From the NCBI GenBank assembly GCA_963734085.1, contig CAVTFT010000015.1, positions 69,912 to 133,911 on the forward strand: a stretch of 64,000 nucleotides of DNA, given 5' to 3'. Of the stretch, positions 43,127 through 64,000 are shown one piece after another (the stretch's first letter is position 1; each line of letters begins with the position of its first letter). The DNA comes from an uncultured beta proteobacterium. Its GTDB lineage: Bacteria > Pseudomonadota > Gammaproteobacteria > Burkholderiales > Casimicrobiaceae. The notes under the pieces are model-generated. The model was not told the origin of the DNA. It ran no database searches and worked only from the letters and a program-made list of their open reading frames with translations. The position numbers and the translations under genes were made by a program.

Positions 43127-43249
43127 CTCTGGAATTTCAATCGAGGCCAGCGCGGACACGAGACCGGGGGGGCACGAATCCGACTTCGACCCTCGCCGGC
43201 GGGACCCGCGGAGCGACTTTCACTGTCGAGTTGGATGGATACACAGCGG

Positions 43250-43393: not shown

Positions 43394-43546
43394 CTCGACC
43401 CCCGTTGCGGTCAGCCTGTCGTAACGAACGAACAATTCGTCGCTCGCGGTTATTCCTTGGGGTGCAGCGGGGCGCTGGCAATAACTCGCACGAGGTCCGG
43501 CCGCTGCATGCACAAAGAGCTGTTCAACGTTGGAGGAGACCACGTC

Positions 43547-43963: not shown

Positions 43964-43982
43964 GCTTCGAAGATCTCGTGCG

Positions 43983-44273
43983 GTGGCCGACCCGCCGCAT
44001 TCGCCCACTGTGAGTTTCGTGTCCACGGAGCTTGCCGGCATTTCGGCGGCGCTCGTCGATGCACTCGCCGAAGCGCGCCACTTCGTCGAGCGCGGCGAAT
44101 TCGGAGCGCCGCTGCGCGAAGTCCTGACCTTCGCCCGCGATCTCCTGGTCCTCGCCGACGAGGCGCTCGCCGCGGATCCCCATTTGGGTGAGCACGCGCG
44201 CGGCCTTGCGATGCAAATGGCCGAGCAAATCGCGACGCTGGAAGCGTTGCTGGGTCCGATCGTCGGTGGTTAG
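43983..44273 (+). CDS. hypothetical small helical protein (uncertain)
   Basis: 96-aa ORF with a GTG start and no recognisable motif. High-GC DNA makes chance ORFs likely. Confidence 0.3.
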   Translation: MADPPHSPTVSFVSTELAGISAALVDALAEARHFVERGEFGAPLREVLTFARDLLVLADEALAADPHLGEHARGLAMQMAEQIATLEALLGPIVGG

Positions 44274-44311
44274 GGAGGGGTTGCGCTGCGGCCTGGTTAC
44301 GATCCGCCACG

Positions 44312-45924: not shown

Positions 45925-46002
45925 GCGCCCGTAGCTCAGTTGGATTAGAGTACCTGGCTACGAACCAGGGGGTCGTGGGTTCAAATCCTGCCGGGCGCGC
46001 CA
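45925..46002 (+). tRNA. tRNA-Arg (anticodon ACG), CCA encoded
   Basis: Acceptor stem GCGCCCG pairs with CGGGCGC. Anticodon arm CCTGG-CTACGAA-CCAGG. T-arm GTGGG-TTCAAAT-CCTGC. Closely parallels E. coli tRNA-Arg(ACG). Confidence 0.92.
45958..46002 (+). repeat. attL-type core: 3' half of tRNA-Arg, repeated at 63823-63866
   Basis: CTACGAACCAGGGGGTCGTGGGTTCAAATCCTGCCGGGCGCGCCA recurs at 63823-63866 with one G fewer in the G-run. Confidence 0.85.
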
Positions 46003-46113
46003 CTATTCAATGGCTTAGCACCTCAAAACCAGATGCTTGGCTCGTCTGCGCGACTTTTGCGCGACCCTTTATCCACAGGTTAGGGTCGCGCGTCGTTTCT
46101 TTCTCGCTACGCA

Positions 46114-47187
46114 TCAGCCACTTGCGACGCGCAGAATCGTCATAGTTCCGACGCGATCGAGCACTCGATTCGCGAGCCCGATGAGCCGTCCGACGTCCGC
46201 GCTGGCGTAGTGCTCGGGCATCGTTCGTGTGGCGTGGCCGAGCAGTGCCGCGCGATCTTCTTCCGCTACGCCCGCGGCCCGCAGTCGGGTCGCAAAGGTG
46301 TGCCTCAGATCGTGAACCCGAACGTCGGCCAGGTTCGCTTCGCGACGGGCGCGCTGCCACGCCGTATTGTTCATGCGTTCGACGCGTTCGCCTCGATAGG
46401 AGAACACCCATACGGGATGCTTTCCTCTTTGCGTCTCGATAATCGACCACGCCGCGTCATTCAAGATCACCACGTGCGCGCGCCGCGATTTGAACGCCTC
46501 CGCCGGAACTACGAACACGCTGCGACCGAGTTCGGCGATCGGCACCTCCCACGACCACCGTAAGCCACACAGATTAGCATCACGTAAACCAGTGTTAACG
46601 GCAAAGAGCGCCATGCGGGCGAGGTGGTCGGGCAACCGACGGAAGATTCGCTCTTGCTCATCCCAATTGATCGGATGCGGAAGACGAGGCGACTCGCGTA
46701 GCATCGTGATGAGCGGAGGGGCCGTTTCCAGCCATGGGAAGCCGTCTCGATCGCGATAGGCACGCGCGGCACGGTGCAGGATGGTACGCGCGACTTCCAG
46801 CGTCCGGTTGATCGTTGTTGCGCTCACCCCATCGGCCAAGCGTGCCTCTATGAGGGGCCGCAACGTTTCGTCGTGTACTTTGCGAATCTCGAGATCACCA
46901 ACATAACGCGATAGCAATCTCAGATGCCACGCGATATCGGCCTGAGTCCGTTTGTACTTGGATTCGAGTAGGAACCGTTTGGCGCAGTCGGAGAACAGGG
47001 GACGGGCGTGCGCTCTTCGCTCCAGTTCCCACTCGAGACGCTCCAATTCCTGCGAAAGCCGACGCTCCGCCTGCTCCTGACATACCAACCCCAGACGCGC
47101 GAATATACGCTCGCCACGGTATTCCTTGTTGATGGTGCGAAAACCCTCGGCATCGACGGTAATGCCTCGTGTGCATGTTGTGGCCAT
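46114..47187 (-). CDS. tyrosine-type site-specific integrase
   Basis: ATG 47187 is preceded by AGGAGG. C-terminal catalytic region is ...VVILNDAAWS...HDLRHTFATRLRAAGV...ALLGHATRTMPEHYA (R, HxxR, Y). The track start at 47235 is probably too long. Confidence 0.9.
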   Translation of the reverse strand: MATTCTRGITVDAEGFRTINKEYRGERIFARLGLVCQEQAERRLSQELERLEWELERRAHARPLFSDCAKRFLLESKYKRTQADIAWHLRLLSRYVGDLEIRKVHDETLRPLIEARLADGVSATTINRTLEVARTILHRAARAYRDRDGFPWLETAPPLITMLRESPRLPHPINWDEQERIFRRLPDHLARMALFAVNTGLRDANLCGLRWSWEVPIAELGRSVFVVPAEAFKSRRAHVVILNDAAWSIIETQRGKHPVWVFSYRGERVERMNNTAWQRARREANLADVRVHDLRHTFATRLRAAGVAEEDRAALLGHATRTMPEHYASADVGRLIGLANRVLDRVGTMTILRVASG

Positions 47188-47635
47188 GAACTCCTCCTGA
47201 ATGGGACGGAGGAGCATTTTGGAAAGTCGCGACAAGACCAGGCAAGTTGGCGACCAATGGATTCCTAATTTGTACCGCGGTTACGGAGCTTTTCTAAATC
47301 AAGCTCTCGCAACACACGTCAAGTTTCAAGAGCAGGTACGCGCAGCCTCAGAGCAGTTGCAAAGAGGCAACCGAAGTTACGAAATGGCTACGCTCGCTAT
47401 CGTCCAAGTTCGAGCCGCACCGATGCTCTGAACGGCTGCAGGCGGGTAGTGTGAGTTCGTGGCGGCGCCCGTTACCCGCCGTTGGCGTCAAGAACCTCGG
47501 CGGTCGAAGGGCGGCTATCGGTGAACACCGGCAATCGCGGCTGTCGCCATGAGCGGTCCTGCATCACGGCCGTCCAACCTGCTCCAACGCGGTCATCGCC
47601 AATCGAGTCGATCGTAGTGCGCCAGCCCGGCCGGT

Positions 47636-48808
47636 TCACGCGCGGGCCGCTGCTGCACGTCCGGTGATTCCCTTGTTCGGATCGATCAGGTATTTTGTGC
47701 CCGTCGCCCGCTTGCCGTACACCGCGATCTCGTCCAGCCGCAGCGCCTCGGCAAGCGAAATCACCTTGGTGTAGTGGCTGGCGAAGGTCGTCTTCAATTC
47801 GGCAACGATCCGCTGTCGCAGCTTCTCCGCGGCCGCGGGCCCGATCTTCTGCAGGAATGGCCAAAGCAGCCAGCCGCCGATGCTCCAGGCAAAGCCGAAG
47901 TTGCGCGAAAGCACCGTCGGCGTGAGGTCGAGCGCCCCGTAGATGTATAGCTGCTTGTGCGTCGCCGACCCGTACCGGCTGTACTCCGTCGCCGATCGGG
48001 TTAGCGCGGCCTCCATGCAGGTGAGTATCTGTCCGGCCAGCGCGCCACCGCCGATTGCGTCGAAGGCCAGCGTCGCTCCGGTAGCTATGATGGCATCCGT
48101 GAGATCCTGCATGAATGTCGGACTGCCGATGTTGCACACGTGGCGGGCGCCCATTGTTTTCAGTAAATCCTGCTGCTCCTGCGTGCGCACGACGTTCACC
48201 AACCCAATGTTTTCAGCGATGCAGATCCGGTTGAGCATCTGGCCGAGGTTGGAGGCCGCCGCGGTGTGTACCAGCGCCGCGTGACCTTCGCGGCGCATGG
48301 TCTCGACCATGCCCAGCGCGGTGAGCGGGTTGACGAAGCATGACGCGCCATCGGCCGGCGCAGTGCCCTCCGGCAGGATCAGGCATTGCCCCACCTTGAC
48401 GCAGCGGTACTGCGAGTACATGGCGCCGCCGAAAAGCGCCACGGTCTTGCCCAGTAGCGCCTGCGCCGCGCCGGACGAGCCGGCTGCGACGACTACGCCG
48501 GCTCCCTCGTTGCCGACGGGCAGCGACTGATCAAGGCGGCCGGCCATGCTCTTCATTCGACTTTCGGGGATGCGCGCCGTTACGATCGGTTTGGCGGCGG
48601 TGCCAGAAGCTGTCGCAGTGCTCATATCGGCAGCGCCGAACAGGAGTCCCAAATCCGAAGGATTGATCGGAGTTGCTTCGACCCGGACGACAACCTCGTC
48701 CGCTTGGGGAAGCGGGGTTTCCAGCGCGACGACCGAGAGTTCGAGCTCGCCGCTCCGCCTGATCAGCGAGCGGAGCTGAAGCCCATGACTTGCGATGATG
48801 TTGTCCAT
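47636..48808 (-). CDS. medium-chain dehydrogenase/reductase (quinone oxidoreductase-like)
   Basis: The ATG at 48808 gives 390 aa: EVVVRVEATPINPSDL...VGNEGAGVVVAAG...ALVHTAAASNLGQML. Confidence 0.8.
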   Translation of the reverse strand: MDNIIASHGLQLRSLIRRSGELELSVVALETPLPQADEVVVRVEATPINPSDLGLLFGAADMSTATASGTAAKPIVTARIPESRMKSMAGRLDQSLPVGNEGAGVVVAAGSSGAAQALLGKTVALFGGAMYSQYRCVKVGQCLILPEGTAPADGASCFVNPLTALGMVETMRREGHAALVHTAAASNLGQMLNRICIAENIGLVNVVRTQEQQDLLKTMGARHVCNIGSPTFMQDLTDAIIATGATLAFDAIGGGALAGQILTCMEAALTRSATEYSRYGSATHKQLYIYGALDLTPTVLSRNFGFAWSIGGWLLWPFLQKIGPAAAEKLRQRIVAELKTTFASHYTKVISLAEALRLDEIAVYGKRATGTKYLIDPNKGITGRAAAARA

Positions 48809-49729
48809 TCGAAGCGTCCGCCAATGTTGACGGGGCGAGTATAGGCGGTCGGGGAGCGTGGCGATTATGGCTCCGACGCGAACGTCCTCTGATCGTTTGC
48901 CTTTCCCAAACCCGATGGTCAGCCGCGGCCGGCTGTAGCCGGTCTCGCGGATGGCTCGGTTCGGCCACAAGCTGCCGGCCGCGCTAAAAAGCTGGCATCC
49001 CGAAAGCGGTCGTCACCGGATGGTTCCGGACGCCTTGACGGACGCGCACGAAGCAATACGGGTTGACCTATGGCTCTACAGGTCCGAAGACCCGCGGCTC
49101 TCTGAGGCTTGCCCAATCTACGCGGCTAGCTTACGTGCTTGCCTTCATCGCCCGCGATGGGCAATCAGGGGTGCAAGCTCCCTTGCACGATGTGAAAACG
49201 ATGGATGACGCTGTCGCTAATTGATACCCGAAATGGCCGGGAAAGAGGGGGCTTTCGACGTCAGCATACGACCCCAAGGGCGCCCTAATCGATTCCAGTG
49301 AAAACCCGATAAGGTGCGCAAAAGCGAGCGGCTTGACTCGGTACTGTTGGGCGGTGCGGTGTCGGCCTGCGCGCGCAGGACTCCTGTACCGGTTGACGGT
49401 GTAACAAGCGTCTTTGTATGCTACGCGCCTTCCTGCGCCGCCATTGCTCCCACGAGTCTCGATGCACGTCCCTGAGACTCGCGTACCTCGGCACGCTTGG
49501 ACATGCGCACGGTTTTCTGCTGTGGCCGGCCGTCGCGCTTCATGCAGCGGTGGCGTTGTTGCTAACATGGACCTGGCACGGTGGGCGACGGCAGAAGGCG
49601 ATCGGCAAGTGAGCCCATCGACGCACCGGTACGGTCCAGAGGGCTGAACCGGACAGCGGCAACTCGCTGCCAATTCGACGCTGATCGCGATAATCAGCTC
49701 TCAGGGATCTCCGTGCGGCGAACAAATCG

Positions 49730-51559
49730 ATGAGCTGGATCGAAGTCACATGGATAGTCATGGCATCGTGGAGCCTCGGGCTCGGCCTCATCCATCTGTT
49801 CATTTGGACCCGGCAGCGCTCGCAACTCCAGTTTCTTCTGTTCTGTGTGCTCGCAGTTTCCGTCGCGGCGTTCGGCGTGTTTGAACTGACTGTAATGCGG
49901 ACGCAGACCGCACAGCAATACGCCAGTGCCGCAAGGTGGGCACAAGTGCCGCTCACCGTCGTCGTTCTTGCGATCCTGGCATTTGTGCAAGTTTACTTCG
50001 GGACCGGAAGGGCTTGGCTCGCGTATGCAGCGGCGGCATTCCGCCTCGTGGCCTTGGTCGCGAACTTCACGACCGGCGAAACGCTCGTGCTGCGCGAGAT
50101 TACGGGGATCGAGCGGTTGCCGCTCGCAGGAGGAGCCGTGGTGTCGGTCCCGATCGGTCACGTCAATCCCTGGATCGCGTTCGCCCAGATCAGCAACCTC
50201 TTGCTGATCGCCTATGTGGCCGACGCGACCATCGCGCTGTGGCGCCGCGGTGGCCCGGAATGCCGTCGGCGTGCCGTACTCATCGGAGGGGCGCTTCTTG
50301 TGTTCCTCACCATCGCGATCGTGATGGGGGTTCTGATCTTCACAGGGTCCGTTCGTGCGCCAACGCCGCTTACGGCGTGCTTTCTCGTCGTCGTCGCGGC
50401 AATGGGTTGTGAGCTTGGATGGCACGTGATTCGTTCGGGCCAGCTTGCGCGCGAAGTGCACGAGAGCGAGCAGCGTATGGACCTTGCAGCCCGAGCCGCG
50501 AGGTTGGCCTTCTGGTCGTTGGACGCCGGCCATCCGGAGATATGGCTCAGTACGCAGGGGCGAGCCCTGTTCGGCATCGCAGATTCCGGGCCCGTCGACC
50601 TCGAGCGATTTCTGACCTTCGTGCATCCGGACGATCGCGACACGCTGCGGACGGCGCTTCAGGCTGCCTTACGTAGCCGGGGTGCATTCGAGAAGGAGGT
50701 GAGGGTCAACCTGCCGGCGAGCGATTTGCGCTGGATCGCCGTGCGCGGCCAGATCGGGAGCGATGCCTCGGGCGCCTCAGCGCTGTTGCGTGGTGTCGCG
50801 CTCGATGTCACCGCGCGCTGGCGGCTCGAACAGCAGGCGGCGCAGCAGCGCAACGAGCTCGCCCACCTGTCGCGAGTGGCAACCCTCGGGGTGCTGTCCG
50901 GCTCTCTCGCGCACGAGATCAACCAGCCGCTGATGGGCATCCTCAGCAATGCCCAGGCAGCGCAACGCTTCCTCGCGGGCGACGACGTGGACCTCGACGA
51001 GGTGCGCGAGATCCTTGCCGATATCGTCGAGGACGACAAACGGGCGGGCGAGGTCATCCGGCGCCTGCGGCTGTTGCTCAAGAAGGGCGAAGTTCAGCAC
51101 GGGTGGCTCGAAATCGGTAACGTCGTGGACGATGTGTTGCGCCTGACGCGCAACGACCTCATGAATCGCGATGTCAAGGTCACGGCCGAGCTCGCCGCGG
51201 ACGTTCCTTTGATCGTGGGGGACCGGATCCAGCTGCAGCAGGTGTTGCTCAACCTGGTGGTGAATGCATGCGATGCAATGGAGCGAGCCGAACATCGTGA
51301 GCTGTTCATCACGACGCGATGTCCGGACGGCGCCAATGTCGAAGTCTCGGTGTCCGATCGCGGCGAAGGCGTACCGCCCGCCGACCTGGAAAGGATCTTC
51401 GAGCCCTTCGTAACCTCGAAGGAGCATGGCATGGGATTGGGCCTCTCGGTGTGCCGTACCATCATTTCCGCGCACCACGGTAGGTTATGGGCGGAAAACA
51501 ACGCGGACCCCGGGGCGACATTCCGCTTCACGCTGCCGCTTGCCACAGACGCGAAATGA
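49730..51559 (+). CDS. membrane sensor histidine kinase (multi-TM sensor, PAS, HisKA, HATPase)
   Basis: 609 aa with about six N-terminal TM helices and a PAS-like segment (FWSLDAG...FVHPDDRD...). H-box SLAHEINQPL, N box LLNLVVNACDAM, G boxes DRGEGV and GMGLGLSVCRTI. Confidence 0.88.
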   Translation: MSWIEVTWIVMASWSLGLGLIHLFIWTRQRSQLQFLLFCVLAVSVAAFGVFELTVMRTQTAQQYASAARWAQVPLTVVVLAILAFVQVYFGTGRAWLAYAAAAFRLVALVANFTTGETLVLREITGIERLPLAGGAVVSVPIGHVNPWIAFAQISNLLLIAYVADATIALWRRGGPECRRRAVLIGGALLVFLTIAIVMGVLIFTGSVRAPTPLTACFLVVVAAMGCELGWHVIRSGQLAREVHESEQRMDLAARAARLAFWSLDAGHPEIWLSTQGRALFGIADSGPVDLERFLTFVHPDDRDTLRTALQAALRSRGAFEKEVRVNLPASDLRWIAVRGQIGSDASGASALLRGVALDVTARWRLEQQAAQQRNELAHLSRVATLGVLSGSLAHEINQPLMGILSNAQAAQRFLAGDDVDLDEVREILADIVEDDKRAGEVIRRLRLLLKKGEVQHGWLEIGNVVDDVLRLTRNDLMNRDVKVTAELAADVPLIVGDRIQLQQVLLNLVVNACDAMERAEHRELFITTRCPDGANVEVSVSDRGEGVPPADLERIFEPFVTSKEHGMGLGLSVCRTIISAHHGRLWAENNADPGATFRFTLPLATDAK

Positions 51560-52191
51560 CGAGCGGTACGGCGACCGTCTTCGTCGTGGACGATGACCCG
51601 TCGGTGCGAAAGGGCGTCTGCCGGCTCCTTCGCTCCACTGGGCTTCGCGCCGAGGCATTCTCGTCGGCGCATGATTTCCTGGAGCGGCACGATCGCGACG
51701 TCACGGGTTGCGTGATCCTCGACCTCGCGATGCCGGGACTCGACGGACTTGCGATGCAGCAGGCCCTGACCGATTGTGGCAGCGTCCTTCCCATCGTCTT
51801 TTTGAGCGGGCGCGGTGACGTCCCAACCACCGTGCAGGCCATGAAGCAAGGCGCGATGGACTTCCTGACCAAGCCCGTCAGCGACGAGGAATTGCTCCGC
51901 GCGGTGCGCCACGCCATCGAGCGGTGCGAGACGCTGCGTGAGACGCGTCGGGAAATGACGGAAATCGAGCGGCGGATCGGGACGCTGACACCGCGCGAGC
52001 ACGAAGTGCTTACGCATCTCGTATCCGGCAGGTTGAACAAGCAGATCGCGGCGGATCTCGGCACCGTCGAGCAGACGATCAAGGTGCATCGCGCGCGCAT
52101 CATGCGGAAGATGCAAGCAGGGACGTTTGCAGCGCTGATACGGCTCGCCGAACGCGGGGGCATCAAGACCCCCTCGAACCGCAGGGGCTGA
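51556..52191 (+). CDS. FixJ/LuxR-family response regulator
   Basis: ATGA overlap with the kinase gene. Receiver VFVVDDDPSVR...DLAMPGLDG...TKP. LuxR HTH LTPREHEVLTHLVSGRLNKQIAADLGTVEQTIKVHRARIMRKM. Confidence 0.9.
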   Translation: MTSGTATVFVVDDDPSVRKGVCRLLRSTGLRAEAFSSAHDFLERHDRDVTGCVILDLAMPGLDGLAMQQALTDCGSVLPIVFLSGRGDVPTTVQAMKQGAMDFLTKPVSDEELLRAVRHAIERCETLRETRREMTEIERRIGTLTPREHEVLTHLVSGRLNKQIAADLGTVEQTIKVHRARIMRKMQAGTFAALIRLAERGGIKTPSNRRG

Positions 52192-52288
52192 TCGCGCTCT
52201 TGCCGTACCCGCTCGGCGGGTGCGTCGACCCGCCATTGAACTAAGGTTCAATTTCGCTGGCGGCCGGCCTGGCCTAGGCTGCCGGCAA

Positions 52289-52678
52289 ATGATCAACAAG
52301 ACGGTACGCGTCGCAGTCGTCGACGACGATCCTTTCGTCCTCAGGGGGCTGCGTCGCCTGCTTCGGTCGGCCGGACTCGAGGTCGACACCTATGCATCGG
52401 GAGCAGCGTTCCTGAGCGTGGTTGCAACGAGCGAGCGGGACTGCGTCGTGCTCGACCTGCATATGCCCCAGACGAGCGGATTCGACGTACAGATGCGACT
52501 CTCCGAAGGCGGGCGAAGCACTCCCGTCATCGTCATCACGGGCGACGACACCCCGGAAGCACGGTCGCGCGCGCTCTCGCTTGGCGCGAAATCCTATCTG
52601 GCCAAGCCCATCGACGAGGCGACGCTGCTGGCGGCGATCGCCGCCGCGATCGGCCGTACCCAGGAAGCGTCCCCGTGA
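52289..52678 (+). CDS. single-domain (CheY-like) response regulator
   Basis: 129 aa: VAVVDDDPFVLRGL...VLDLHMPQTSGFD...VIVITGDD...YLAKP. No output domain. Confidence 0.85.
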   Translation: MINKTVRVAVVDDDPFVLRGLRRLLRSAGLEVDTYASGAAFLSVVATSERDCVVLDLHMPQTSGFDVQMRLSEGGRSTPVIVITGDDTPEARSRALSLGAKSYLAKPIDEATLLAAIAAAIGRTQEASP

Positions 52679-52771
52679 GCGGGCAAAGTCGATCGAGGGG
52701 ACATTCGAATGCAGTTGCAGTTGATTGGCGCACTGTCGCCGTCGTCGCGTCGAAAAGTGAAAGGAGAACAC

Positions 52772-53065
52772 ATGAAACGCTGGCTTCCCTTCGTTGTGGT
52801 TCCGACACTGCTCGCGGCGGGCATCGCCTTCGCGCAGTACCCGATCATGGACATGGTCGCGAGCACGGTGATCCAGAAGTACCAGAGCTCGAGTTGCGAG
52901 CAGTTGTGGCAGGAAAGAGCGCAGGGTCAGGGCAAGCCGAAGCCGGAGATGGAACAGCGCGCGATCAACGCGCTGAAGCAGGATCCTCAGATGCGCCAGG
53001 CGTTCTTCAACAAAGTGGCGGCACCGATCGTCAACAAGATGTTCGAATGCGGGATGATTCCGTGA
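52772..53065 (+). CDS. small exported protein, 97 aa, two Cys
   Basis: AAGGAG Shine-Dalgarno, then MKRWLPFVVVPTLLAAGIAFA-QY signal peptide. Mature part has C...C (SSSCEQLW...MFECGMIP). No family recognised. Confidence 0.55.
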   Translation: MKRWLPFVVVPTLLAAGIAFAQYPIMDMVASTVIQKYQSSSCEQLWQERAQGQGKPKPEMEQRAINALKQDPQMRQAFFNKVAAPIVNKMFECGMIP

Positions 53066-53115
53066 CGGCTCACTGTGCCGACGCGTTAAGCGGGCATGCA
53101 TTTGACGGAGGAAAC

Positions 53116-53214
53116 ATGAGCGGCGCCACCCGCACGAGCCTGCGCAACGTGGCCTACGGCATTCTGATCGGTGTCGCGATCATGGCCGTCCTCGTGATCT
53201 TGGGATTTGCATGA
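53116..53214 (+). CDS. possible 32-aa single-TM micropeptide
   Basis: GGAGGAAAC upstream. MSGATRTSLRNVAYGILIGVAIMAVLVILGFA. Its stop overlaps the next ATG (ATGA). Short, so speculative. Confidence 0.3.
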   Translation: MSGATRTSLRNVAYGILIGVAIMAVLVILGFA

Positions 53215-54128
53215 AGCGGCGACCCTCGTTCGCGATGCTACAGCGGTGGCTGCGCGAGCCGCTGCTGCACTTCCTGCTTGCCGGGCTCGCGGTCTTCGTC
53301 GTATTCCGTGCGCTCAATCCTGCGTCGGTAGACCCCGCGTCGTCCAATGCGATCAGGCTCACGGACGACGACATTCGGCAGATGGCGGTGGCATGGGTCG
53401 CACAGGGACGATCCCCGCCGACCCCGGAGCAGATGCAAAACCTCGTGGAGATGAAGATCCACGAGGAGATCTTCTTCCGCGAAGCCCTCGCGCTGGGTCT
53501 CGACAAGAACGACACCATCGTCAAGCGTCGACTGGCGCAGAAAATGGAGTTCCTGACCGAAGATGTTTCCGGCATCGATGAACCCGCTCGTGATGAACTC
53601 CGGGCGTGGTTCGCGAAGAACGCCGAGCGTTTCGCATCTGCGCCACGGGTTTCGTTTCACCACGTCTATTTCTCGCCCGATCGCCGCGGCACGCGCGCGC
53701 GCGAGGACGCGGCACGGTCGGTCGAGAAGCTTCGCGGCGCGCCCCGCGATTCGCCCATCGCGGCCGGACTTGGCGACCGGTTCATGTTCCAGGACGACTA
53801 CGCGGATCGCTTGTTCGATCAACTGGCGAGCGTCTTCGGCTCTGCGTTCGCGCAGTCGCTGTTCGGGCTCGAATCCGGCTCGTGGCAGGGGCCGATCGAG
53901 TCCGGGTACGGATGGCACCTCGTCTGGATCGATTCGGTCGCGCCAAAGCGCATCCCCGCCTTCGAGGAGGTCGAGCCGGAGGTCAAGCAGGAATGGATTG
54001 CCGAGCGCCGCGCCGAGGCGAAGCGCCAGACCTATCAAGCGATGCGCGCGCGCTACGAGGTGGTACTGCCCGAGGCGAGCGGCCGCCTGGCAGCCGCGAC
54101 CGCCGTCGAGAAGACCAGCGCACGCTAA
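53211..54128 (+). CDS. membrane-anchored PpiC/parvulin-type peptidyl-prolyl isomerase-like protein
   Basis: 305 aa with an N-terminal TM helix (LLHFLLAGLAVFVVF). C-terminal WQGPIESGYGWHLVWIDSV resembles the rotamase core of PpiD/SurA-like proteins. Confidence 0.75.
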   Translation: MKRRPSFAMLQRWLREPLLHFLLAGLAVFVVFRALNPASVDPASSNAIRLTDDDIRQMAVAWVAQGRSPPTPEQMQNLVEMKIHEEIFFREALALGLDKNDTIVKRRLAQKMEFLTEDVSGIDEPARDELRAWFAKNAERFASAPRVSFHHVYFSPDRRGTRAREDAARSVEKLRGAPRDSPIAAGLGDRFMFQDDYADRLFDQLASVFGSAFAQSLFGLESGSWQGPIESGYGWHLVWIDSVAPKRIPAFEEVEPEVKQEWIAERRAEAKRQTYQAMRARYEVVLPEASGRLAAATAVEKTSAR

Positions 54129-56221: not shown

Positions 56222-56291
56222 CACCGATGTGAGGCAGAAGCGGGCGGTAACCCCAGCAGCCCCGTGCATTCCGAGGGAGAGGAGAGCAGTC

Positions 56292-58483
56292 ATGTACAGA
56301 GTCGTTTCCATCGCGTCGTGCGTTCTCGCGCTCTTAGCGGCCTGGCCGGCGTTCGCGCAGAGAAATCCGGAGCGCAACGTCTATTACGGCGAGACGCACT
56401 TGCATACGAGCTGGTCGTTCGACGCGTTCGCGTTCGGTGACAGCGCCAACACGCCCGAAACGTTCTATCAGTACGCGCTTGGCAAGTCCGTGACCCATCC
56501 GGGTGGCTACCAGGTGAGGATCACCAAGCCGCTCGACTGGGGCGCTGCGACGGAGCACGCGGAGTACATGGGCATGATTCAGGAAGCGATGGATCCGAAC
56601 TCGCCGTTGCGGCAGAACTCGCCGCTCCTGAGCGGCGCGCTGAGGGTCGGGGCGCGCGAAGATCCGATGGTCGTGTTCAAGGCGCTCAACGTCACCATCG
56701 CCAAGGGGGTACAGGTCAAGGAGTTCACCGACCCGGCGGTGGTCGCCCCCGTCTGGAAGCGGATCGTCGACATCGCCGACAAGTACTATCAGCCCGGCAA
56801 GTTCACCACGTTCGCCGCCTACGAGTGGACGGCCACGCCCAATGCCAAGAACCTCCACCGCAACATCTTCTTCCTCGACTCGAAAAAGGTGCCGGCGGTG
56901 CCGTTCACGGCCGTCGACTCCACCGACCCGCGCGAGCTCTGGAGCTGGATGGACAAGCAGCGGGCCGCTGGCAACGAAGTGCTGGCGATCTCGCACAACG
57001 CGAACCTGAGCGACGGCATCATGTTCCCGACAGAGGTGGACGACAAGGGCCGGCCGATCGACAAGGCTTATGCCGAGGCGCGGCTGCGCAACGAACCGTT
57101 GACGGAGGTGAAGCAGGTCAAGGGCGCAGTCGGAGACGACGCCGGGGCTTTCGCCCAACGACGGGTTCGCCGAACTACGAGGTCTTCGTCTGGCACATCC
57201 TGGGGGCGAAGGGTGGCCCGCCGCAGGACTACGGCAGCTACGTGCGGCAGGCGTACAAGGATGGCGTCGCGATGGAGCAGGCGCGAGGATACAACCCGTA
57301 CAAGTTCGGCGTCGTGAGCGGATCCGACTCGCACGTCGGACCGTGCCCTACCGCCAGGAAGAACTTCTTCGGCGTGCATGGGACCGTCGAGCGACACGGC
57401 CGAGAAGCGCGTTGACGGGGCGACGGTGCTGGGCCTCAACAGCCTGTGGGTCACCCCCGCGGGATTGAGCGCGGTGTGGGCCGAGGAGAACACGCGCGAG
57501 GCGATCTTCGCCGCGATGAAGCGCAAGGAGACCTATTCCACGCAGCGGCGTGCGCATCCCCGTGCGCTTCTTCGGCGGCTGGGCGCTCGATGCCGGATTG
57601 CTGAAGCAGAAGGACTGGGTGAAGACCGCCTATGCGAGGGGCGTGCCGATGGGCGCCGACCTGCCGGCGCCGGAGGGCAAAGCGCCGACGTTCGTCGTCT
57701 GGGCGGTGAAGGATCCCGACGAGCGGCAACCTCGACCGCATCCAGATCGTCAAGGGCTGTGAGCGAGCGGCGAGCTCGAGAAGGTCTACGACGTCGCATG
57801 GGCGGCGACCGCAAGGTCGCGGGCGGACGGGCAAGGTGCCGCCGGTCGGCAACGGTCGCCGTCGAGAGGGGCACCTACACGAACAGCATCGGCGCGGTCG
57901 GAGCTTAAAGCCGTGTGGACCGACCCGATTTCGATCCGGGCCTCGACGCGTTCTATTACGCCCGCGTGCTGAGATCCCGACTCCGCGCTGGAGCACGATC
58001 CAGGCGGCGAAGCTCGGACAGTTGCCGCCGCCCGGCGCAGGTTTCCGCCGGCAATCCAGGAGCGCGCGTGGAGTTCGCCGATCTGGTACACGCCGAGCGC
58101 CGAGGCGCGCAAGGCCACCAAGCCCGGCATGACGGTGGCCGATCTGAAGCAGCAGGGAGCGGCGGCGCTCACCGATGCGCAGCTCAGGGAGTTCGTCATC
58201 GGCAAGACGGTCAACGTGCGCAACACCGTCACCGGACAGCGCTTCGAGATCCTCTACGGCGCAACGGGGCGGCGGCTGGTGACCGCGGTCGACGGAAGGC
58301 CGTCGGAGATGGCGCTTCGGGAGGCGGGCGAGCTGTTCCACGCTGGCGACGTTCAGTACGAGATTCACGACGGACGCCTCGTTACCAACATCTGACGGCA
58401 CACCGTTCGAAGTTACCGTGTACAAGCCGGGCGATCGATACGTGGCCTCGCGCAGCAACGAATTCGGCTACGTCAACTACGAA
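56292..58483 (+). pseudogene. DUF3604-like exported protein, at least 10 frameshifts
   Basis: N-terminus is intact (signal peptide, NVYYGETHLHTSWSFDAF...). From about 57123 the homologous peptide hops frames. The order is EVKQVKG, QSETTPGLSPNDGFA, NYEVFVWHILGAKGG...GSDSHVG, DTAEKRVDGATVLGLNSLW, GVRIPVRFFGGWALDAG. It continues NLDRIQIVKG, GELEKVYDVAWA, GDRKVAGG, KVPPVGN, ERGTYTNSIGAV, ELKAVWTDP, EIPTPRWSTIQAAKLG, IQERAWSSPIWYTP. Confidence 0.75.
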
Positions 58484-58591
58484 GGGTCGAGCCGGCTCGG
58501 CAGTGAGGGGGATTCGATGAAACGAGCACTGATTGGGATTGCCGGCACTCCTCCTTTGCGGCGGCTTCTCCCTTCTGATCCGCAGATCCAG

Positions 58592-59942
58592 ATGAAACGG
58601 AGACCAACGATGTTCAGCAAAGGTACACGCCGGTCAGCGCCCGAACGTGCAGTGCTCACCGCTTCGCTAGCTCTCACCGGGGCGCTGTCAGGTCCCGCCT
58701 TGGCCGGCGGAATGATGGCCTACGAGCTGGGCACCGCCGACGTGGGACTGCCTCGGCGGGCTACAACGCCCGCGCGCAGGACGTCTCCACCGTGTTTACG
58801 AATCCGGCCGGCATGACGCGCCTTGCGGGCAATCAGTTCCTGGTGTCGGGCCAGCTGTTCTGGAGCAACACGAAGTTCTCGATTGGCTCCGGAACGTCGC
58901 CAGGGCTTGGCAGCGACGATGGGGGTTACGCCGTCGGCCACGATGGCTGGTTTCCGGCGGCGGTGCGTTCGCGAGCTACACCGTGTCGCCGGACGTGAAG
59001 GTCGGATTCGCGCTTGCGGGCAACGTCGGCGGCGTGCTCAATTACAACAACGACTGGGCCGGGCGCTATTACGTTCAGCAGACGTGGATCGTCGGCTTGT
59101 CCTTGCTGCCTACGGTGGCCTGGAAGGTCAACGACAAGCTTTCGCTCGGCGCGTCGCTCAATGCGATGTACGGCGTCTACAAGACCAACGTCGCCATCAA
59201 CAACATCGATCCGGCCTTCGGCGACGGCCGGCTCAAGATGAAGGACGAGACCTGGGGCTGGGGCGCCAATCTGGGGCTTCTCTACGAATTCACCCCGGCA
59301 ACGCGGCTCGGACTAACGTGGAGTTCGCAGGTGAACCTGAACTTCAAACACCGCTGGAGTTCACGGGGCTCGCTCCGGGTGTGAGCGCGGCGCTGGCAAG
59401 GCTGGGTTGCTGAACTCGAGCCTCGCGATCGGGATCGAGATACCCGCAGACCAGCGATGGTGAGCCTCTTCACCCAGATGGACGACCGCTGGGCGTTGCT
59501 CGGCAGCTACGGCTGGCAGCAGTGGTCCAAGTTCGGCCAGGTCGAGATCGGCATCGACGACTCGACCAATCCGACCAGCCTCACGACGGACATTCCGTTC
59601 AAGGACACCTGGCATCTTGCCGGAGGGGCGCAGTATCGACTCAGCGATCCGTGGCTGCTCAACTTCGGGATCGCGTACGACTCGGGCTTCCAGCAGAGCA
59701 GCTCGCAGATCTCGCCGCTCCTGCCGATCAACTCGGCGTGGCGTTTCGGCGTGGGCGGACAGCAGCAGCTGAGCAAGACATCGTTCTGGGGCCTGTCGGC
59801 GCCGAATACCTCTACGGCGGGACGCTGAAGACCGACAGTGCACTCGAAGCCCGTCGCCCTGGGCGGCCGCGGCGACCTCGTCGGCTCATACAACAACGCC
59901 GGCGTAATCTTCTTCGGCGCCTACTACAACAAGGCATTTTGA
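58592..59942 (+). pseudogene. FadL/OmpP1/TodX-family outer-membrane transport protein, multiple frameshifts
   Basis: Fragments lie in successive frames. These include AYELGTADVGL, STVFTNPAGMTRLAGNQF, SPDVKVGFALAGN...GWGANLGLLYEFTPATRLGLTW, and MVSLFTQMDDRWALLGSYGWQQW...FGIAYDSG. The gene ends in GVIFFGAYYNKAF, with a C-terminal Phe. Confidence 0.7.
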
Positions 59943-59962
59943 CGAAGCCTCTGCGAGGACGG

Positions 59963-60664
59963 ATGCGCACAAGGGTCCCGTTGGCATCACGCCGGCACAG
60001 GTTCGCGCTGCTGCTGGCGCTGCTGCTCGTCTCGCTTGCGATTCAGTCGTTCGACGCGCGCCCAGGAGCCGGGGGATTGCTTTCCGATGCATCGCGAACG
60101 GTGCTCGGCGTCGTCCTCTTTGTCGTTGTCTTCGAACACAAGCGCGAACGAGCCGCAATGGCGATAATTCTCGCACTCATCGTCACGATCGGCTGGGGCC
60201 GGCGCCTTCTCGCCGCGAGCCTTGATCACACGGTGTCGCTGGGCGCCGACGTACTGACGGCGCTGTATCTCTGGTTCGCGGTTTGGGTGATCCTGCGCGA
60301 GTTGTTCCGCCAGACGGCCGGCGCCGAGAACGTGCTCGGCGCGATCTGCGGCTACCTCATTGCCGGTGACGCCTGGACGCGCGTGAACATGATCGCGTAC
60401 TTGCTCGCGCCGGCGACCTACACCTTTAGCCCGGACGTCTCCGCGCTTCTCGCCGATTGGCACGGTCGCCTCGCCCTGTTTTCACATTACAGCTTCGCGC
60501 AGATGCTGACGATCGGTTACGCGGACGTGACGCCGGTGCGCGCACCGGCGACGACGTTGAGTCTGCTCGGCGCCTTGTTCGGACTGTTCTACACCGCCGT
60601 GGTCGTGTCGCAGTTCGTCGGCCTCGCTCAGTCCAGAGGCCGCGAAATGCCGGGTGATCGATGA
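59963..60664 (+). CDS. small potassium-channel-like protein (pore TIGYAD)
   Basis: 233 aa and intact. Several TM helices, then pore helix and filter-like YSFAQMLTIGYADVTP, then a final TM helix. No cytoplasmic regulatory domain. Confidence 0.7.
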   Translation: MRTRVPLASRRHRFALLLALLLVSLAIQSFDARPGAGGLLSDASRTVLGVVLFVVVFEHKRERAAMAIILALIVTIGWGRRLLAASLDHTVSLGADVLTALYLWFAVWVILRELFRQTAGAENVLGAICGYLIAGDAWTRVNMIAYLLAPATYTFSPDVSALLADWHGRLALFSHYSFAQMLTIGYADVTPVRAPATTLSLLGALFGLFYTAVVVSQFVGLAQSRGREMPGDR

Positions 60665-60776
60665 TGGTCGTGCGCCTGACCATCCCGGTTGCAACGAATA
60701 GCACCCACGTGATGCTGGTGGGCGCCTGCCACCGCACCCGATCCTGAATTGGTCGATTAAAAAGGGAGTGAGATCC

Positions 60777-62144
60777 ATGACGACGCAATTTCCCGGCACA
60801 CCTCGCGATGCATCCACCGATGGTTGATTCTTGTACCGGCCGCGCTGTTCGTTGCCGGCTGCGCGACACACGAACCCGATGATGCCGTCGCCCAACCTCT
60901 ACACGGGCGCGCAATGCGAAGCCTCTGTTCGGCGATCTGCCGGCAAACCGGCGTACGCCGCCGCTCGAGCTTCTCTATCTCACGGACCGTACGCCGCCCC
61001 AGAAGCCGGATGATCCTGTCCCGTATACCTCCAACCGCTCGCGGTCGATGGCGTTCGGGATCACGACGGTGGAGTTCGGCGACAACGTCACCTGGGAGAC
61101 GCTGGTCAAGCAGAGCACCGCCGTGGAGCGCTCGCCCGAGATCGATACCAAGCTCGGCGCCACCACCGAGCTTGGCCGCTTCCCGCCGATTCCCTACCAG
61201 ATCACCGTGACGCCGGCGGGGCTGACGCGCGCGCGCGCGATCTCGACGCGCACGCGCAGGCCGAGAAATCGTTCCAGGACGAGCTCGCGCGCCGACTCGC
61301 CGCTTCGCCGCGCAAGGAAGTGGTCCTGTTCGTCCACGGGTACGCCAACACGTTCCAGGACGCGGCGCTCACCGATGGGCGAGCTCTGCCACTTTCTCGG
61401 TCGCGAATTCGTGTGCGCGATCTTCACCTGGCCGGCAGGCGGCTCGAAGGGCGCGTTCTTCGGCTACGACGTCGATCGCGAATCGAGCGAGTTCGCGGTC
61501 GAGCACTTGCGCAAGGCGCTGCGGATGGTTGCCGATACCCCGGGACTTCGAGAGGCTGCATCTGCATCGCTCACAGCCGGGGTACCGATGTCCTCGCCAC
61601 CGCGCTCTCCGAGCTCAGCGTGGAGGCGTACATCGGCCGGAAGACGGTCGGCGAGCGCTTCAAGATCGGCAACGTGATCCTCGCTGCGCCCGACATCGAC
61701 GCCGACGTGGCGCCCACCAAGATCTTCAAGGTGCTGTCGGACCCCGACCTGCCCTACGGCAGCGCGCCGGACCCGGAAGTCGTCATCAGGCCCACGCCCG
61801 GCTTTCACCTGACGATGTACGTCTCGCCCGACGACAAAGCCCTCGCCACATCGGGATGGCTCTTCGGCAGCCTGGCGCGCTTCGGGCGGGTCAATGCCGC
61901 GATGTTTTCGCCGAAGGACATCGCCGAAGCCCGAAAGGCGGCGCTCTTCGACGTGGTTCAGGTGACGGACGTCTCCGGCTTCATCGGCCACAGCTACTTC
62001 CATGACGATCCGCGCGTGAGCGCCGACATCGTCGCGCTTTTGCGCTATGGACTGAAGCCCAACGACAGCGGACGGCCGCTGGTGGAGATCGCCAAGCCGT
62101 TCTATCGGGTGCGCACGCCGGAGGAGATCGCGGCGGGCAAGTGA
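60777..62144 (+). pseudogene. DUF900-type alpha/beta hydrolase lipoprotein, multiple frameshifts
   Basis: GGGAG then ATG 60777. Lipobox FVAGC lies in a second frame. Further fragments include ELLYLTDR, MAFGITTVEFGDNVTWETL, VVLFVHGYANTFQDAAL and FVCAIFTWPAGGSKGAFFGYDVDRESSEF. The last is IAHSRGTDVL...ILAAPDID...MYVSPDDKAL. The fragments are spread over three frames. Confidence 0.65.
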
Positions 62145-62215
62145 CGCCTGCGGCTAAGAGGGGCGGCTGTTCTGCCGATCGTTGCAACGCTCATGACAAG
62201 ACCTGAGGAGACAAG

Positions 62216-62799
62216 ATGCAATCACATATAAAACGAATTCTGATCTCGGCATTCGCAGTCGCGGCGTTGGGCGCGGGTGTCGCGCACGGCAAGGAATGCA
62301 AGGGCGTCAACTTTCCCGACCAGGCCCAGGTCGAAGGCAGCAATCTGACGCTGAACGGTCTCGGCTTGCGCCAGGCGACCTTTCAAGGTCAATGTCTACG
62401 TTGCCGCGCTCTACGTCGCGAAGACATCGAGCGACCCGAACGCGATGCTGGGATCGAGTACCCCGAGCGAACTTGATCCTCCAGTTCGTGCGCAACGTCG
62501 GCGCCGACGATCTCCGCAAGGGATGGGACGAGGGCTTCGAGAAGAATTCCAAGGCGCAGCTTGCCGGCGCTGAAGGAGCGCATCGCGATGCTCAACGGCT
62601 GGATGGCCGATGTGAAATCCGGGCAGCGGCTGACGTTCATTCACAAGCCGGGCGCGGGAATCCAGGTGAATGTGAACGGCGCGGTGAAAGGACGATCAAG
62701 GGCGACGATTTCGCCAAAGCCTTCCTGTCGATCTGGCTGGGTAGCGATCCGCCGAACCCGGAAATCAAGGCCGGGCTCCTCGGCGGCGCCTGCGGCTAG
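62216..62799 (+). pseudogene. chalcone-isomerase-like exported protein, frameshifted
   Basis: Signal peptide MQSHIKRILISAFAVAALGAGVAHG, then LTLNGLGLRQATF. It then shifts to VNVYVAALYVAKTSSDP, LILQFVRNVGADDLRKGWDEGFEKN, LKERIAMLNGWMADVKSGQRLTF and GDDFAKAFLSIWLGSDPPN. Confidence 0.6.
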
Positions 62800-62810
62800 A
62801 CGCAGCGGCG

Positions 62811-63812
62811 ATGCGCGATGCTTCGCCGAACATCGTTGCGGTTGGATCCGTCGTGCGCGATCTGCTGCGGACGTTGATCGCTGGTATGCAGGCCGTATCG
62901 GCGCTGACCCGTTCTGGCGCCGAAGCGGTCGTCGGGCTGTGCCTTCGCGGCGGTCGCGGCGAGCGCGGCCGCGCAGGATCTCGAGCCAAGGTCCTACTCG
63001 AATACGCCGGTCGGCCTCAACTTCCTGGTCGGCAGGATATTCGTATACTCCAGGGGCGCGACGCCTCGATCCGACGGTGCCCTCACGAACGCCGACATCC
63101 GCGTCAACGGCGCGACGCTCGCCTACGCGCGCTCGATGGACCTTTGGGGCAAGTCCGGCAAATTCGACATCGTGGTGCCCTACGGGTGGCTTTCGGGCAG
63201 CGCGGAGTTTGCCGGTCAACCCCACGAGCGCAAGATTTACGGGTTCGGCGATCCGCGATTTCATGCTGTCGGTCAATTTCTACGGCGCGCCGGCGCTTTC
63301 GCTCAAAGAGTTACGCGGATTACCGGCAGGACCTCATCATCGGCGCGAGCCTGTACGTATGGGCGCCGTGGGGCCAGTACGACCCGAGCAAGCTCGTCAA
63401 TATCGGCACCAACCGCTGGGCGTTCAAGACCGAACTGGGGGTCTCCAAGGCAGTAGACGCCTGGACACTGGAGCTTATTCCGGGCGGTGACTTTTTTCAG
63501 CGACAACACGAATTTTCTGGGGGCCAGACCCGCTCGCAGGATCCGCTCTACTCGGTGCAGGCGCACGTAATCTACGGCTTCGCATCCGGCGTATGGGTCG
63601 CGCTCGACGGGACTTACTACACCGGCGGGCAGACCAGTCTCAATGGCACGCCGGACGCCGACAGGCAGTCGAACTCGCGGGCCGGGCTGACACTCGCCTT
63701 GCCGGTGGACCGAAACAATTCCGTCAAGCTCTATGCCAACACTGGCGTATCCACACGCACCGGCAGCAGCTTCAATACTTTCGGGGTGGCTTGGCAGTAT
63801 CGTTGGTATTGA
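62811..63812 (+). pseudogene. beta-barrel outer-membrane transporter (phenol-degradation MetA-like family), multiple frameshifts
   Basis: Fragments are AAQDLEPRSYSNTPVGLNFLV, NADIRVNGATLAYARSMDLWGKSGKFDIVVPYGW, YRQDLIIGASLYVWAPWGQYDPSKLVNIGTNRWAFKTELG and ...FNTFGVAWQYRWY (aromatic C-terminus). The stop lies 10 nt before the att repeat. Confidence 0.6.
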
Positions 63813-63822
63813 TTCGGGCGGC

Positions 63823-63866
63823 CTACGAACCAGGGGTCGTGGGTTCAAATCCTGCCGGGCGCGCCA
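63823..63866 (+). repeat. attR-type copy of the tRNA-Arg 3' half (44 nt, not a full tRNA)
   Basis: CTACGAACCAGGGGTCGTGGGTTCAAATCCTGCCGGGCGCGCCA. It matches 45958-46002 except for one missing G. No 5' half of a tRNA lies upstream. Confidence 0.85.
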
Positions 63867-63977
63867 TCTTTCAAAGGCTTAGCACCTCAAAACCAGATGC
63901 TTGGCTCGTCTGCGCGACTTTTGCGCGACCCTTTATCCACAGGTTAGGGTCGCGCGTCGTTTCTTTCTCGCTACGCA

Positions 63978-64000
63978 TCAGCCACTTGCGACGCGCAGAA
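63978..64000 (-). CDS. 3' end of a second integrase gene (truncated by window edge)
   Basis: 63876-64000 is identical base for base to 46012-46136, which holds the stop codon and last codons of the island-1 integrase. Confidence 0.6.

What the first reader, a model, noticed from the sequence alone, without database searches (positions are those of the whole stretch)
45925..64000. Two related islands appear stacked in tandem at one tRNA-Arg(ACG) gene
The 3' 45 nt of tRNA-Arg (45958-46002) recur at 63823-63866 with one G missing. After a divergent patch of about 10 nt (CTATTCAATGG versus TCTTTCAAAGG), 46012-46136 and 63876-64000 are identical to the window edge. That stretch includes the stop codon and last codons of the integrase. 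The layout is therefore tRNA-Arg, island 1 (int1 plus cargo), tRNA fragment, then int2 and more. Serial integration at a tRNA 3' end predicts that the element next to the intact tRNA arrived last. Identical int 3' ends next to a diverged spacer suggest either two visits by one integrase family or a duplication. It is a compact example of island accretion, and island 1 should still be excisable because int and both att copies are intact.
Basis: partly seen in the sequence, partly recalled or inferred. Interest (0 to 1): 0.7.

Follow-up and report, generated by a model that had tools for sequence, protein, structure and literature searches.

The report
Stacked genomic islands at tRNA-Arg gene
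A 17.9-kb integrase-bearing island sits at a tRNA-Arg gene and is followed by a displaced tRNA fragment and the start of a second, near-identical integrase module, which is the ordinary, already documented pattern of islands stacking at one tRNA gene.

Summary
tRNA-Arg(ACG) lies at 45925-46002. Its last 45 nt, from the first base of the anticodon loop to CCA, recur at 63823-63866 with one G fewer. After an 11-nt patch with 4 mismatches, 46012-46136 equals 63876-64000. The interval holds an intact tyrosine integrase (46114-47187, minus strand) and regulatory and metabolic cargo, so island 1 is a canonical tRNA-gene island.

Only the stop codon and 20 coding nt of a second integrase are visible, and I could not obtain sequence beyond 64000. 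Relatives support the stacking reading. Homologous integrases sit beside the intact tRNA-Arg in the same lysC-tRNA-Ser-PLD backbone. One metagenome contig (L018) has an inner island with its own integrase between two fragments. The closest relatives sit beside fragments that start at the same base.

Caveats:
- The distal cargo (about 55.8-63.8 kb) is full of single-base indels, so the missing G carries little weight.
- No excisionase-like gene was found, so excisability is unproven.

Tandem arrays at tRNA genes are catalogued in the Islander database. This is a new member of a known kind and of low interest. The one curiosity is a perfectly conserved DnaA-box 9-mer in the att arm.

The parts
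45925..46002 (+). Intact tRNA-Arg(ACG) gene. By the standard model its 3' 45 nt were supplied by island 1.
   Evidence: ARAGORN; Rfam RF00005, 62 bits.
45958..46002 (+). attL core: the identity block from the first base of the anticodon loop (CTACGAA) to CCA.
   Evidence: Alignment with the distal copy. The same start point is seen in 9 further fragment copies: L001, L002, L004, L010, L018 (two copies), L019, L023 and L030, with L031/L032 repeating the L030 island.
46003..46113 (+). Element-side (P') arm between the tRNA end and the int1 stop. It contains the variable 11-nt patch (46003-46013), the direct repeats GCGCGAC-TTTT-GCGCGAC (46048-46065), a perfect DnaA-box 9-mer TTATCCACA (46069-46077), and a 9-bp hairpin GCGCGACCC (46059-46067) / GGGTCGCGC (46083-46091) followed by a T-rich run.
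   Evidence: (fold -36.1 kcal/mol, z = -2.5).
46114..47187 (-). int1: a 357-aa tyrosine integrase, intact.
   Evidence: Pfam PF00589, 6e-19; PHROG 1 integrase, 2.8e-37. Catalytic Arg, His-x-x-Arg, His and Tyr align with XerD / XerC-like structures. The Lys assignment is my own reading and does not align cleanly. Full-length 94% match to 357-aa homologues.
47188..47269 (-). Conserved upstream region of int1. Nucleotide homology to all close relatives ends at about 47269, which marks the end of the shared att-int module.
   Evidence: blastn of the window against the loci.
47270..63812 (.). Cargo of island 1: Zn-dehydrogenase/quinone-reductase-like gene (47636-48970, -), histidine kinase (49730-51559), LuxR-type response regulator (51487-52191), receiver protein (52220-52678), PPIase-like (53211-54128), a hypothetical protein, then HupE-like, DUF3604, outer-membrane-protein pieces, DUF900, chalcone-isomerase-like and MetA-like outer-membrane protein. 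All the genes from HupE-like onwards are split by frameshifts. There are no phage, conjugation, toxin-antitoxin or excisionase genes.
   Evidence: Pfam, NCBIfam, ORF translations, frameshift-aware alignment, tblastn with relatives' HTH_17 and toxin-antitoxin proteins.
63823..63866 (+). Displaced tRNA-Arg 3' fragment (inner att junction; attR of island 1). It has G4 instead of G5.
63867..63977 (+). Second copy of the P' arm (patch TCTTTCAAAGG, direct repeats 63912-63929, TTATCCACA 63933-63941, hairpin). Identical to the first copy except for 4 patch positions.
63978..64000 (-). Stop codon plus the last 20 coding nt of a second integrase gene (int2). The rest lies outside the window.
   Evidence: Offset of 17,864 nt from the int1 stop. 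Nothing more can be read.

Best explanation
This is a tandem array of tRNA-gene islands built by serial site-specific integration.

An element carrying a tyrosine integrase and an attP site integrated into tRNA-Arg(ACG) by a crossover in the anticodon loop. The attP copies the tRNA from the anticodon loop to CCA. Integration regenerates the tRNA from the element's copy and pushes the previous 3' half downstream.

The locus already held a closely related element (its att arm plus int2). The old 3' half therefore now sits between island 1's last cargo gene and int2's arm.

Shown here: the intact tRNA, the co-oriented fragment, an intact int1, the sharp repeat boundary at the anticodon loop, and the same architecture in relatives.

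Inferred: the crossover position, the order of arrival (island 1 last), and that int2 heads a second island. Whether int2 is complete is unknown; I estimate about 50%, because many fragment-adjacent copies in relatives appear frameshifted or truncated.

Island 1 is probably not autonomously excisable at present, or needs a factor supplied in trans.
For: - tRNA plus fragment plus internal integrase.
- The fragment boundary lies exactly at CTACGAA in the window and in 9 further fragment copies in relatives: L001, L002, L004, L010, L018 (two copies), L019, L023 and L030, with L031/L032 repeating the L030 island.
- Family members at 78-79% aa identity sit beside the intact tRNA-Arg(ACG) in the same backbone, lysC - tRNA-Ser(GCT) - PLD - tRNA-Arg (L027, L028, L030). 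L032 and L033 also carry the intact tRNA beside the integrase on shorter contigs. This tRNA is therefore the family's attB.
- L030/L031/L032 show a complete 2.5-kb island with a 45-nt fragment.
- L018 shows an inner island with its own integrase between two fragments, i.e. a true array.
- In L001 the DNA on the tRNA side of the fragment is an arsenite-oxidase cluster, typical island cargo.
- The two window copies share every position that varies among relatives except the patch, and both patch variants exist elsewhere in the family.
Against: - Only 23 nt of int2 are visible.
- The far end of any second island, and the native chromosomal flank, are outside the window.
- The source contig (141,027 bp) could not be fetched.
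- Over the 125 nt after the patch the copies are 100% identical, whereas relatives differ by 10-12% over the full core-plus-arm stretch. That is closer than expected for two independent arrivals and may need gene conversion or a very recent common source.
- The 8 kb leading up to the second copy is indel-rich, which lowers trust in this part of the assembly.
Confidence: 0.7

Rival explanations
1. Tandem duplication or homogenisation rather than two arrivals. A single island was duplicated by unequal exchange between attL and attR cores of sister chromosomes. Alternatively, the two att-int modules were homogenised by gene conversion, so the near-identity does not reflect two visits.
For: The copies are 100% identical over 125 nt after the patch and over the core, apart from one G. 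Every relative differs from the window by 10-12% over the full core-plus-arm stretch.
Against: Unequal exchange would copy the attL arm, patch included. Instead, 4 of 11 patch positions differ while the flanks are identical, and both patch variants occur in other family members. That points to distinct element lineages or a mosaic, not a clean duplication.
Confidence: 0.12
2. Assembly artefact. The contig is a metagenome-assembled genome, and the path cargo - fragment - int arm could be a misjoin through the 44-nt core or the att-int repeat between strain variants.
For: The source is a MAG contig. The 55.8-63.8 kb segment has at least 6 single-base indels within 420 nt of one gene, and several other genes there are split, while the core genes at 1-45 kb are intact. 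This suggests a locally poor consensus or low coverage.
Against: The two copies are not identical (patch), so this is not a collapsed repeat. The same fragment-then-integrase junction occurs in several independent assemblies, including a 4.58-Mb contig (L001), a 903-kb contig (L002) and JGI contigs. The architecture is therefore biologically real in this family.
Confidence: 0.1
3. Relic rather than second island. What follows the fragment is only a decayed att-int remnant (a truncated or frameshifted int2 with little or no cargo of its own). The locus would then be one live island plus a scar.
For: Among relatives, many fragment-adjacent integrase copies appear frameshifted or truncated: L002, L004, L007, L010 and L018/L023. 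L020, L021 and L024, where the junction itself is not visible, are also split across frames.
Against: L001's fragment-adjacent copy is full length. The visible 125 nt of the second arm have no difference from the live copy, which argues against long decay.
Confidence: 0.35

Closest known systems
Tandem arrays of tRNA/tmRNA-gene genomic islands as defined in the Islander database (PMC4383910; continued in the TIGER/Islander resource, PMC12424338)
   Same: An intact tRNA gene, co-oriented displaced 3' fragments, and a tyrosine integrase per island. The island next to the intact gene is read as the newest. Islander lists 125 tandems among 3919 islands.
   Different: The second member's integrase and fragment cannot be seen here. 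The two att-int modules are unusually similar to each other.
Anticodon-loop ('A' sublocation) attP class of tRNA-targeting integrases (Islander Table 1: 2083 of 3919 islands)
   Same: The identity block runs from the anticodon loop to the 3' end of the tRNA, and the fragment boundary lies exactly at the first loop base.
   Different: The crossover position is inferred from the repeat boundary only, not mapped.
Accretion of integrative elements such as CIME/ICE composites in Streptococcus thermophilus (from my own knowledge, not checked here)
   Same: Related elements using one att site stack side by side. Members lacking their own excision functions can in principle move with, or be mobilised by, a neighbour.
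   Different: There are no conjugation genes here, and no evidence of en-bloc mobility.
Minimal relatives of the same integrase family (L030/L031/L032: int + PemK-like toxin-antitoxin + HTH_17, 2.5 kb)
   Same: Same attB, the same 45-nt core, the same arm layout (direct repeats plus TTATCCACA), and 78% aa identity of the integrase.
   Different: Island 1 lacks the toxin-antitoxin pair and the HTH_17 gene, and carries 16.5 kb of unrelated cargo.

Membership tests
tRNA-gene genomic island (Islander criteria) | Intact tRNA gene at one end | tested here: met
   ARAGORN; Rfam tRNA, 62 bits.
tRNA-gene genomic island (Islander criteria) | Displaced 3' tRNA fragment downstream in the same orientation | tested here: met
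   63823-63866, 44/45 nt. Exact 32-mer found twice against 0 expected.
tRNA-gene genomic island (Islander criteria) | Tyrosine integrase gene inside the interval | tested here: met
   46114-47187 (-), PF00589 6e-19. Catalytic Arg, His-x-x-Arg, His and Tyr aligned to XerD; the Lys does not align cleanly.
Tandem island array (Islander: each member has its own integrase and own fragment) | First member has its own integrase and fragment | tested here: met
   int1 plus the fragment at 63823.
Tandem island array (Islander: each member has its own integrase and own fragment) | Second member has its own integrase gene | tested here: inconclusive
   Only the stop codon and 20 coding nt (63978-64000) are in the window. 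The contig could not be extended.
Tandem island array (Islander: each member has its own integrase and own fragment) | Second member has its own displaced fragment further downstream | not testable with these tools
   It would lie beyond 64000.
Anticodon-loop class attP | Identity block starts in the anticodon loop and runs to the tRNA 3' end | tested here: met
   The block starts at C of CTACGAA in the window and in 9 further fragment copies in relatives: L001, L002, L004, L010, L018 (two copies), L019, L023 and L030.
Autonomously excisable integrative element | Recognisable excisionase / recombination directionality factor (HTH_17 type, as in relative L030) | tested here: not met
   tblastn of the L030 HTH_17 protein against the whole window hits only the tRNA-core overlap. 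No HTH_17 appears in Pfam scans of the island ORFs. Small ORFs were not scanned exhaustively, and not every integrase needs such a factor.
Prophage or conjugative element | Phage structural/replication genes or conjugation genes | tested here: not met
   Pfam shows only regulatory, metabolic and envelope cargo. No relatives in IMG/VR. Best plasmid hit is 41% aa identity.

The most novel reading that the evidence does not exclude
The 1.3-kb att-int module could be more than an integrase with its site. Its arm carries a perfect DnaA-box 9-mer (TTATCCACA) that is invariant in all 18 copies examined, even where the surrounding hairpin is lost. This box might be a functional host-factor site that couples integration, excision or int/tRNA expression to the replication initiator. 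Separately, the lysC-tRNA-Ser-PLD-tRNA-Arg locus could be a lineage-wide accretion hotspot, where excisionase-less islands such as island 1 move en bloc with, or are mobilised in trans by, neighbouring modules.
Probability: 0.1. Interest if true: 0.5.

Novelty: new member of a known kind. Interest (0 to 1): 0.22.

Why it matters
It adds one documented example, in uncultured soil Betaproteobacteria, of how a single tRNA gene collects successive islands with interchangeable cargo around a small conserved att-int module. It does not change what is known. Tandem arrays at tRNA genes are routinely catalogued. The practical value is for annotation: island boundaries at 46003 and 63866, a likely low-quality or decayed segment at 55.8-63.8 kb, and a defined integrase family whose attB is tRNA-Arg(ACG). 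The conserved DnaA-box motif in the arm is the only feature that might repay an experiment.

Tried and rejected
1. Extending the window. The look-up of encoding contigs was tried with six window proteins or their exact database copies: the outer-membrane protein ORF, two int1 start variants, P0121, the chalcone-isomerase-like ORF and P0149. All were 'not on record', as was P0001. The exact int1 protein is nonetheless in the protein collection, on a 141,027-bp contig.

2. The genome-contig scan found relatives but not the source genome.

3. I first noted that all 8 closest relatives with the junction visible sit beside fragments, never beside an intact tRNA. I considered secondary-site integration or an unusual module biology. 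This was rejected as a general claim once L027/L028/L030/L032/L033 showed family members beside the intact tRNA in the same backbone. The fragment-adjacent copies are best read as inner or relic array members.

4. I argued that island 1's right end is defective because it lacks the arm direct-repeat motif and a gene stops 10 nt from the core. This was rejected because the complete 2.5-kb island in L030 also has coding sequence running into the core and no motif on that side.

5. The viral and plasmid collections gave nothing close.

6. Search for a third or degenerate core copy inside the window: none found.

7. Search for a tRNA-Ser fragment repeat downstream of tRNA-Ser: none found.

8. PHROGs and PADLOC on the unannotated ORFs: no hits.
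Full report
OBSERVATION

The window holds two tRNA genes, tRNA-Ser(GCT) at 42013-42106 and tRNA-Arg(ACG) at 45925-46002. The tRNA-Arg scores 62 bits against Rfam tRNA. Its last 45 nt (45958-46002) run from the first base of the anticodon loop, CTACGAA, to CCA. They recur at 63823-63866 with four Gs instead of five.

An exact 32-nt part of this core occurs twice in the window, against 0.00 expected in shuffles. After an 11-nt patch (CTATTCAATGG versus TCTTTCAAAGG, 4 mismatches), 46012-46136 and 63876-64000 are identical up to the window edge. This is the only significant repeat in 41-64 kb, and there is no third, even degenerate, core copy in the window.

ANATOMY OF ISLAND 1

Directly 3' of the tRNA lies a 111-nt non-coding arm (46003-46113). 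It contains:
- a tandem direct repeat GCGCGAC-TTTT-GCGCGAC (46048-65);
- a 9-bp hairpin followed by a T-rich run (fold -36.1 kcal/mol, z = -2.5);
- in the hairpin loop, the 9-mer TTATCCACA (46069-77).

Next comes an intact 357-aa tyrosine integrase on the minus strand (46114-47187). The evidence is Pfam PF00589 at 6e-19, PHROG 1 integrase, and full-length 94% matches to 357-aa homologues. The catalytic Arg, His-x-x-Arg, His and Tyr align with XerD and a XerC-like structure. I also read a catalytic Lys, but that position does not align cleanly.

The cargo (47270-63812) comprises a quinone-reductase-like dehydrogenase, a PAS histidine kinase, a LuxR-type response regulator, a receiver protein and a PPIase-like protein. 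It continues with HupE-like, DUF3604, outer-membrane, DUF900 and chalcone-isomerase-like genes and a MetA-like outer-membrane protein. There are no phage, conjugation, toxin-antitoxin or excisionase genes. The last gene's stop codon (63810-63812) is 10 nt from the displaced fragment. Island 1 spans 17,864 nt.

COMPARATIVE EVIDENCE

The exact int1 protein exists in public data on a 141,027-bp contig. Neither it nor five other window proteins or their exact database copies could be located by the contig look-up. The window therefore could not be extended.

Relatives come from uncultured soil Betaproteobacteria. Nucleotide homology to the closest ones (87-90%) covers only the 1.3-kb module, from the core to about 47269. 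All cargo is unrelated.

In the closest relatives (L001, L002, L004, L010, L018/L023, L019) the integrase lies beside a tRNA fragment that begins at the same CTACGAA, not beside an intact tRNA. L007 has a shorter fragment. Many of these integrase copies appear frameshifted or truncated.

Family members at 78-79% aa identity (L027, L028, L030) sit beside the intact tRNA-Arg(ACG) in the same backbone as the window: lysC - tRNA-Ser(GCT) - PLD-like - tRNA-Arg. L032 and L033 also have the intact tRNA beside the integrase on shorter contigs. This tRNA is therefore the family's attB.

L030/L031/L032 carry a complete 2.5-kb island (int, a PemK-like toxin-antitoxin pair, an HTH_17 protein). It ends in a 45-nt fragment that encodes the last 17 codons of the HTH_17 gene.

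L018 shows an inner island with its own integrase between two fragments. It is flanked by arms carrying a different direct-repeat motif, like that next to a 46%-identical integrase at an intact tRNA-Arg in L026. That is direct evidence that mixed tandem arrays form at this tRNA.

In L001 the DNA on the tRNA side of the fragment is an arsenite-oxidase cluster, which I recognise as typical island cargo.

MECHANISM

The best reading is the standard one. The attP of each element copies the tRNA from the anticodon loop to CCA. Integrase-mediated crossover in the loop regenerates the tRNA from the element's copy and displaces the previous 3' half.

A fragment followed immediately by an integrase arm cannot come from one integration. 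It requires a resident element. The structure, the sharp boundary, an intact int1 and real arrays in relatives are shown. The crossover site, the order of arrival and the completeness of int2 are inferred.

The two window modules share every position that varies among relatives except the patch. Both patch variants occur elsewhere in the family. This favours two closely related elements, or later homogenisation by gene conversion, over a clean duplication, which would have copied the patch.

CAVEATS

First, int2 is represented by a stop codon and 20 nt only.

Second, the distal cargo is abnormal. A frameshift-aware alignment of the DUF3604 gene to a 75%-identical homologue needs six single-base insertions and one deletion between 57126 and 57667. 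The last insertion, at 57667, may reflect the homologue's own corrupted C-terminus. None is needed in the first 835 nt of the gene, and identity stays at 78% overall. HupE-like, DUF900, chalcone-isomerase-like and both outer-membrane genes are also split. In contrast, the fab cluster, lysC, int1 and the two-component genes are intact.

Many indels without extra substitutions look more like a locally poor long-read consensus than natural decay, though decay is not excluded. Either way, the single missing G, which lies in a G5 run that every relative preserves, has little evidential weight.

Third, 'still excisable' is unproven. No HTH_17-type excisionase is present. I first thought the lack of an arm motif at the right end argued against a functional attR, but L030's complete island also lacks one, so I withdrew that argument.

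RIVALS

- Duplication or gene conversion (0.12).
- Assembly misjoin through the repeat (0.10). This is weakened because the same junction type recurs in several independent assemblies, including a 4.58-Mb contig.
- The second copy is only a relic (about 0.35). This is compatible with the array origin.

COMPARISON WITH WHAT IS KNOWN

Islander defines exactly this situation and reports 125 tandem arrays among 3919 islands. More than half of those islands use anticodon-centred attP sites (PMC4383910). Island 1 passes all island criteria. Array membership is met for the first member and cannot be completed for the second. This is a new member of a known kind.

INTEREST

Interest is low (0.22). The one feature a specialist might pause on is the perfect DnaA-box consensus TTATCCACA. 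It occurs only in the two modules of the window (0.02 expected). It occurs exactly once, at the same place, in each of 16 related loci, even where the hairpin is not conserved. A literature search found no paper linking DnaA boxes to attP function. Its role is untested.

Noticed in passing
window 46069-46077 and 63933-63941; one copy in each of L001, L002, L004, L007, L010, L018, L019, L022, L023, L027-L033: A perfect DnaA-box consensus 9-mer, TTATCCACA, sits in the att arm between the tRNA end (or fragment) and the integrase stop. These are the only two copies in the 64-kb window (0.02 expected). The motif is invariant across all related modules, even where the surrounding hairpin is lost. 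No literature link to attP function was found.
   Followed up: partly
window about 55800-63812 (e.g. 57126, 57172, 57339, 57361, 57392, 57543): An indel-rich segment. The DUF3604 gene needs at least 6 single-base frame corrections within 420 nt while keeping 78% identity to a homologue. HupE-like, DUF900, chalcone-isomerase-like and two outer-membrane genes are also split. Genes in 1-54 kb are intact. The inserted bases are not in homopolymers. The cause may be a poor local consensus or an unusual form of decay.
   Followed up: partly
window 42107-44435: A 2.3-kb lower-GC (0.565) insert lies between tRNA-Ser(GCT) and the PLD-like gene. The same spacer is only about 83 nt in syntenic relatives (L027, L030). 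Its ORFs (42449-43126, 43235-43963) have no Pfam, NCBIfam, PHROG or PADLOC hit. There is no integrase and no tRNA-Ser fragment repeat.
   Followed up: partly
L030 8724-11265 (also L031, L032): A minimal 2.5-kb island of the same integrase family: int, a PemK-like toxin-antitoxin pair, and an HTH_17 (excisionase-like) gene whose last 17 codons are encoded by the displaced tRNA-Arg fragment.
   Followed up: yes
L018 644-5342: An inner island (4.7 kb, with an apparently frameshifted integrase) bounded by two tRNA-Arg fragments. The flanking arms carry a different direct repeat (GGGAC-T5-GGGAC), like the arm next to the 46%-identical integrase of L026. This indicates mixed arrays of two integrase types at one tRNA.
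   Followed up: partly
window 46048-46065; L027 and L030 attL arms: The tandem direct repeats in the arm change in parallel between relatives: GCGCGAC...GCGCGAC in the window and L027, GCGGGAG...GCGGGAC in L030. This is what would be expected of integrase arm-binding sites co-evolving with the protein.
   Followed up: no
L019 819-836 and L022 1114-1131: L019 has a second copy of the GCGCGACTTTTGCGCGAC motif about 100 nt on the far side of the fragment. In L022 the arm motif is preceded by the same left context as that second copy, and no tRNA fragment is visible before the contig ends. This would fit a deletion between the two motif copies.
   Followed up: no
L001 13323-20286: An arsenite-oxidase cluster (phosphonate-binding protein, histidine kinase, sigma-54 regulator, Rieske small subunit and molybdopterin large subunit) lies on the tRNA side of the fragment-plus-integrase junction in a 4.58-Mb MAG contig.
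   Followed up: no
window 45941-45948: The tRNA-Arg D-loop reads GGATTAGAG, with one T more than the GGATAGAG of relatives L026, L027 and L030. The gene still scores well as a tRNA (62 bits).
   Followed up: partly
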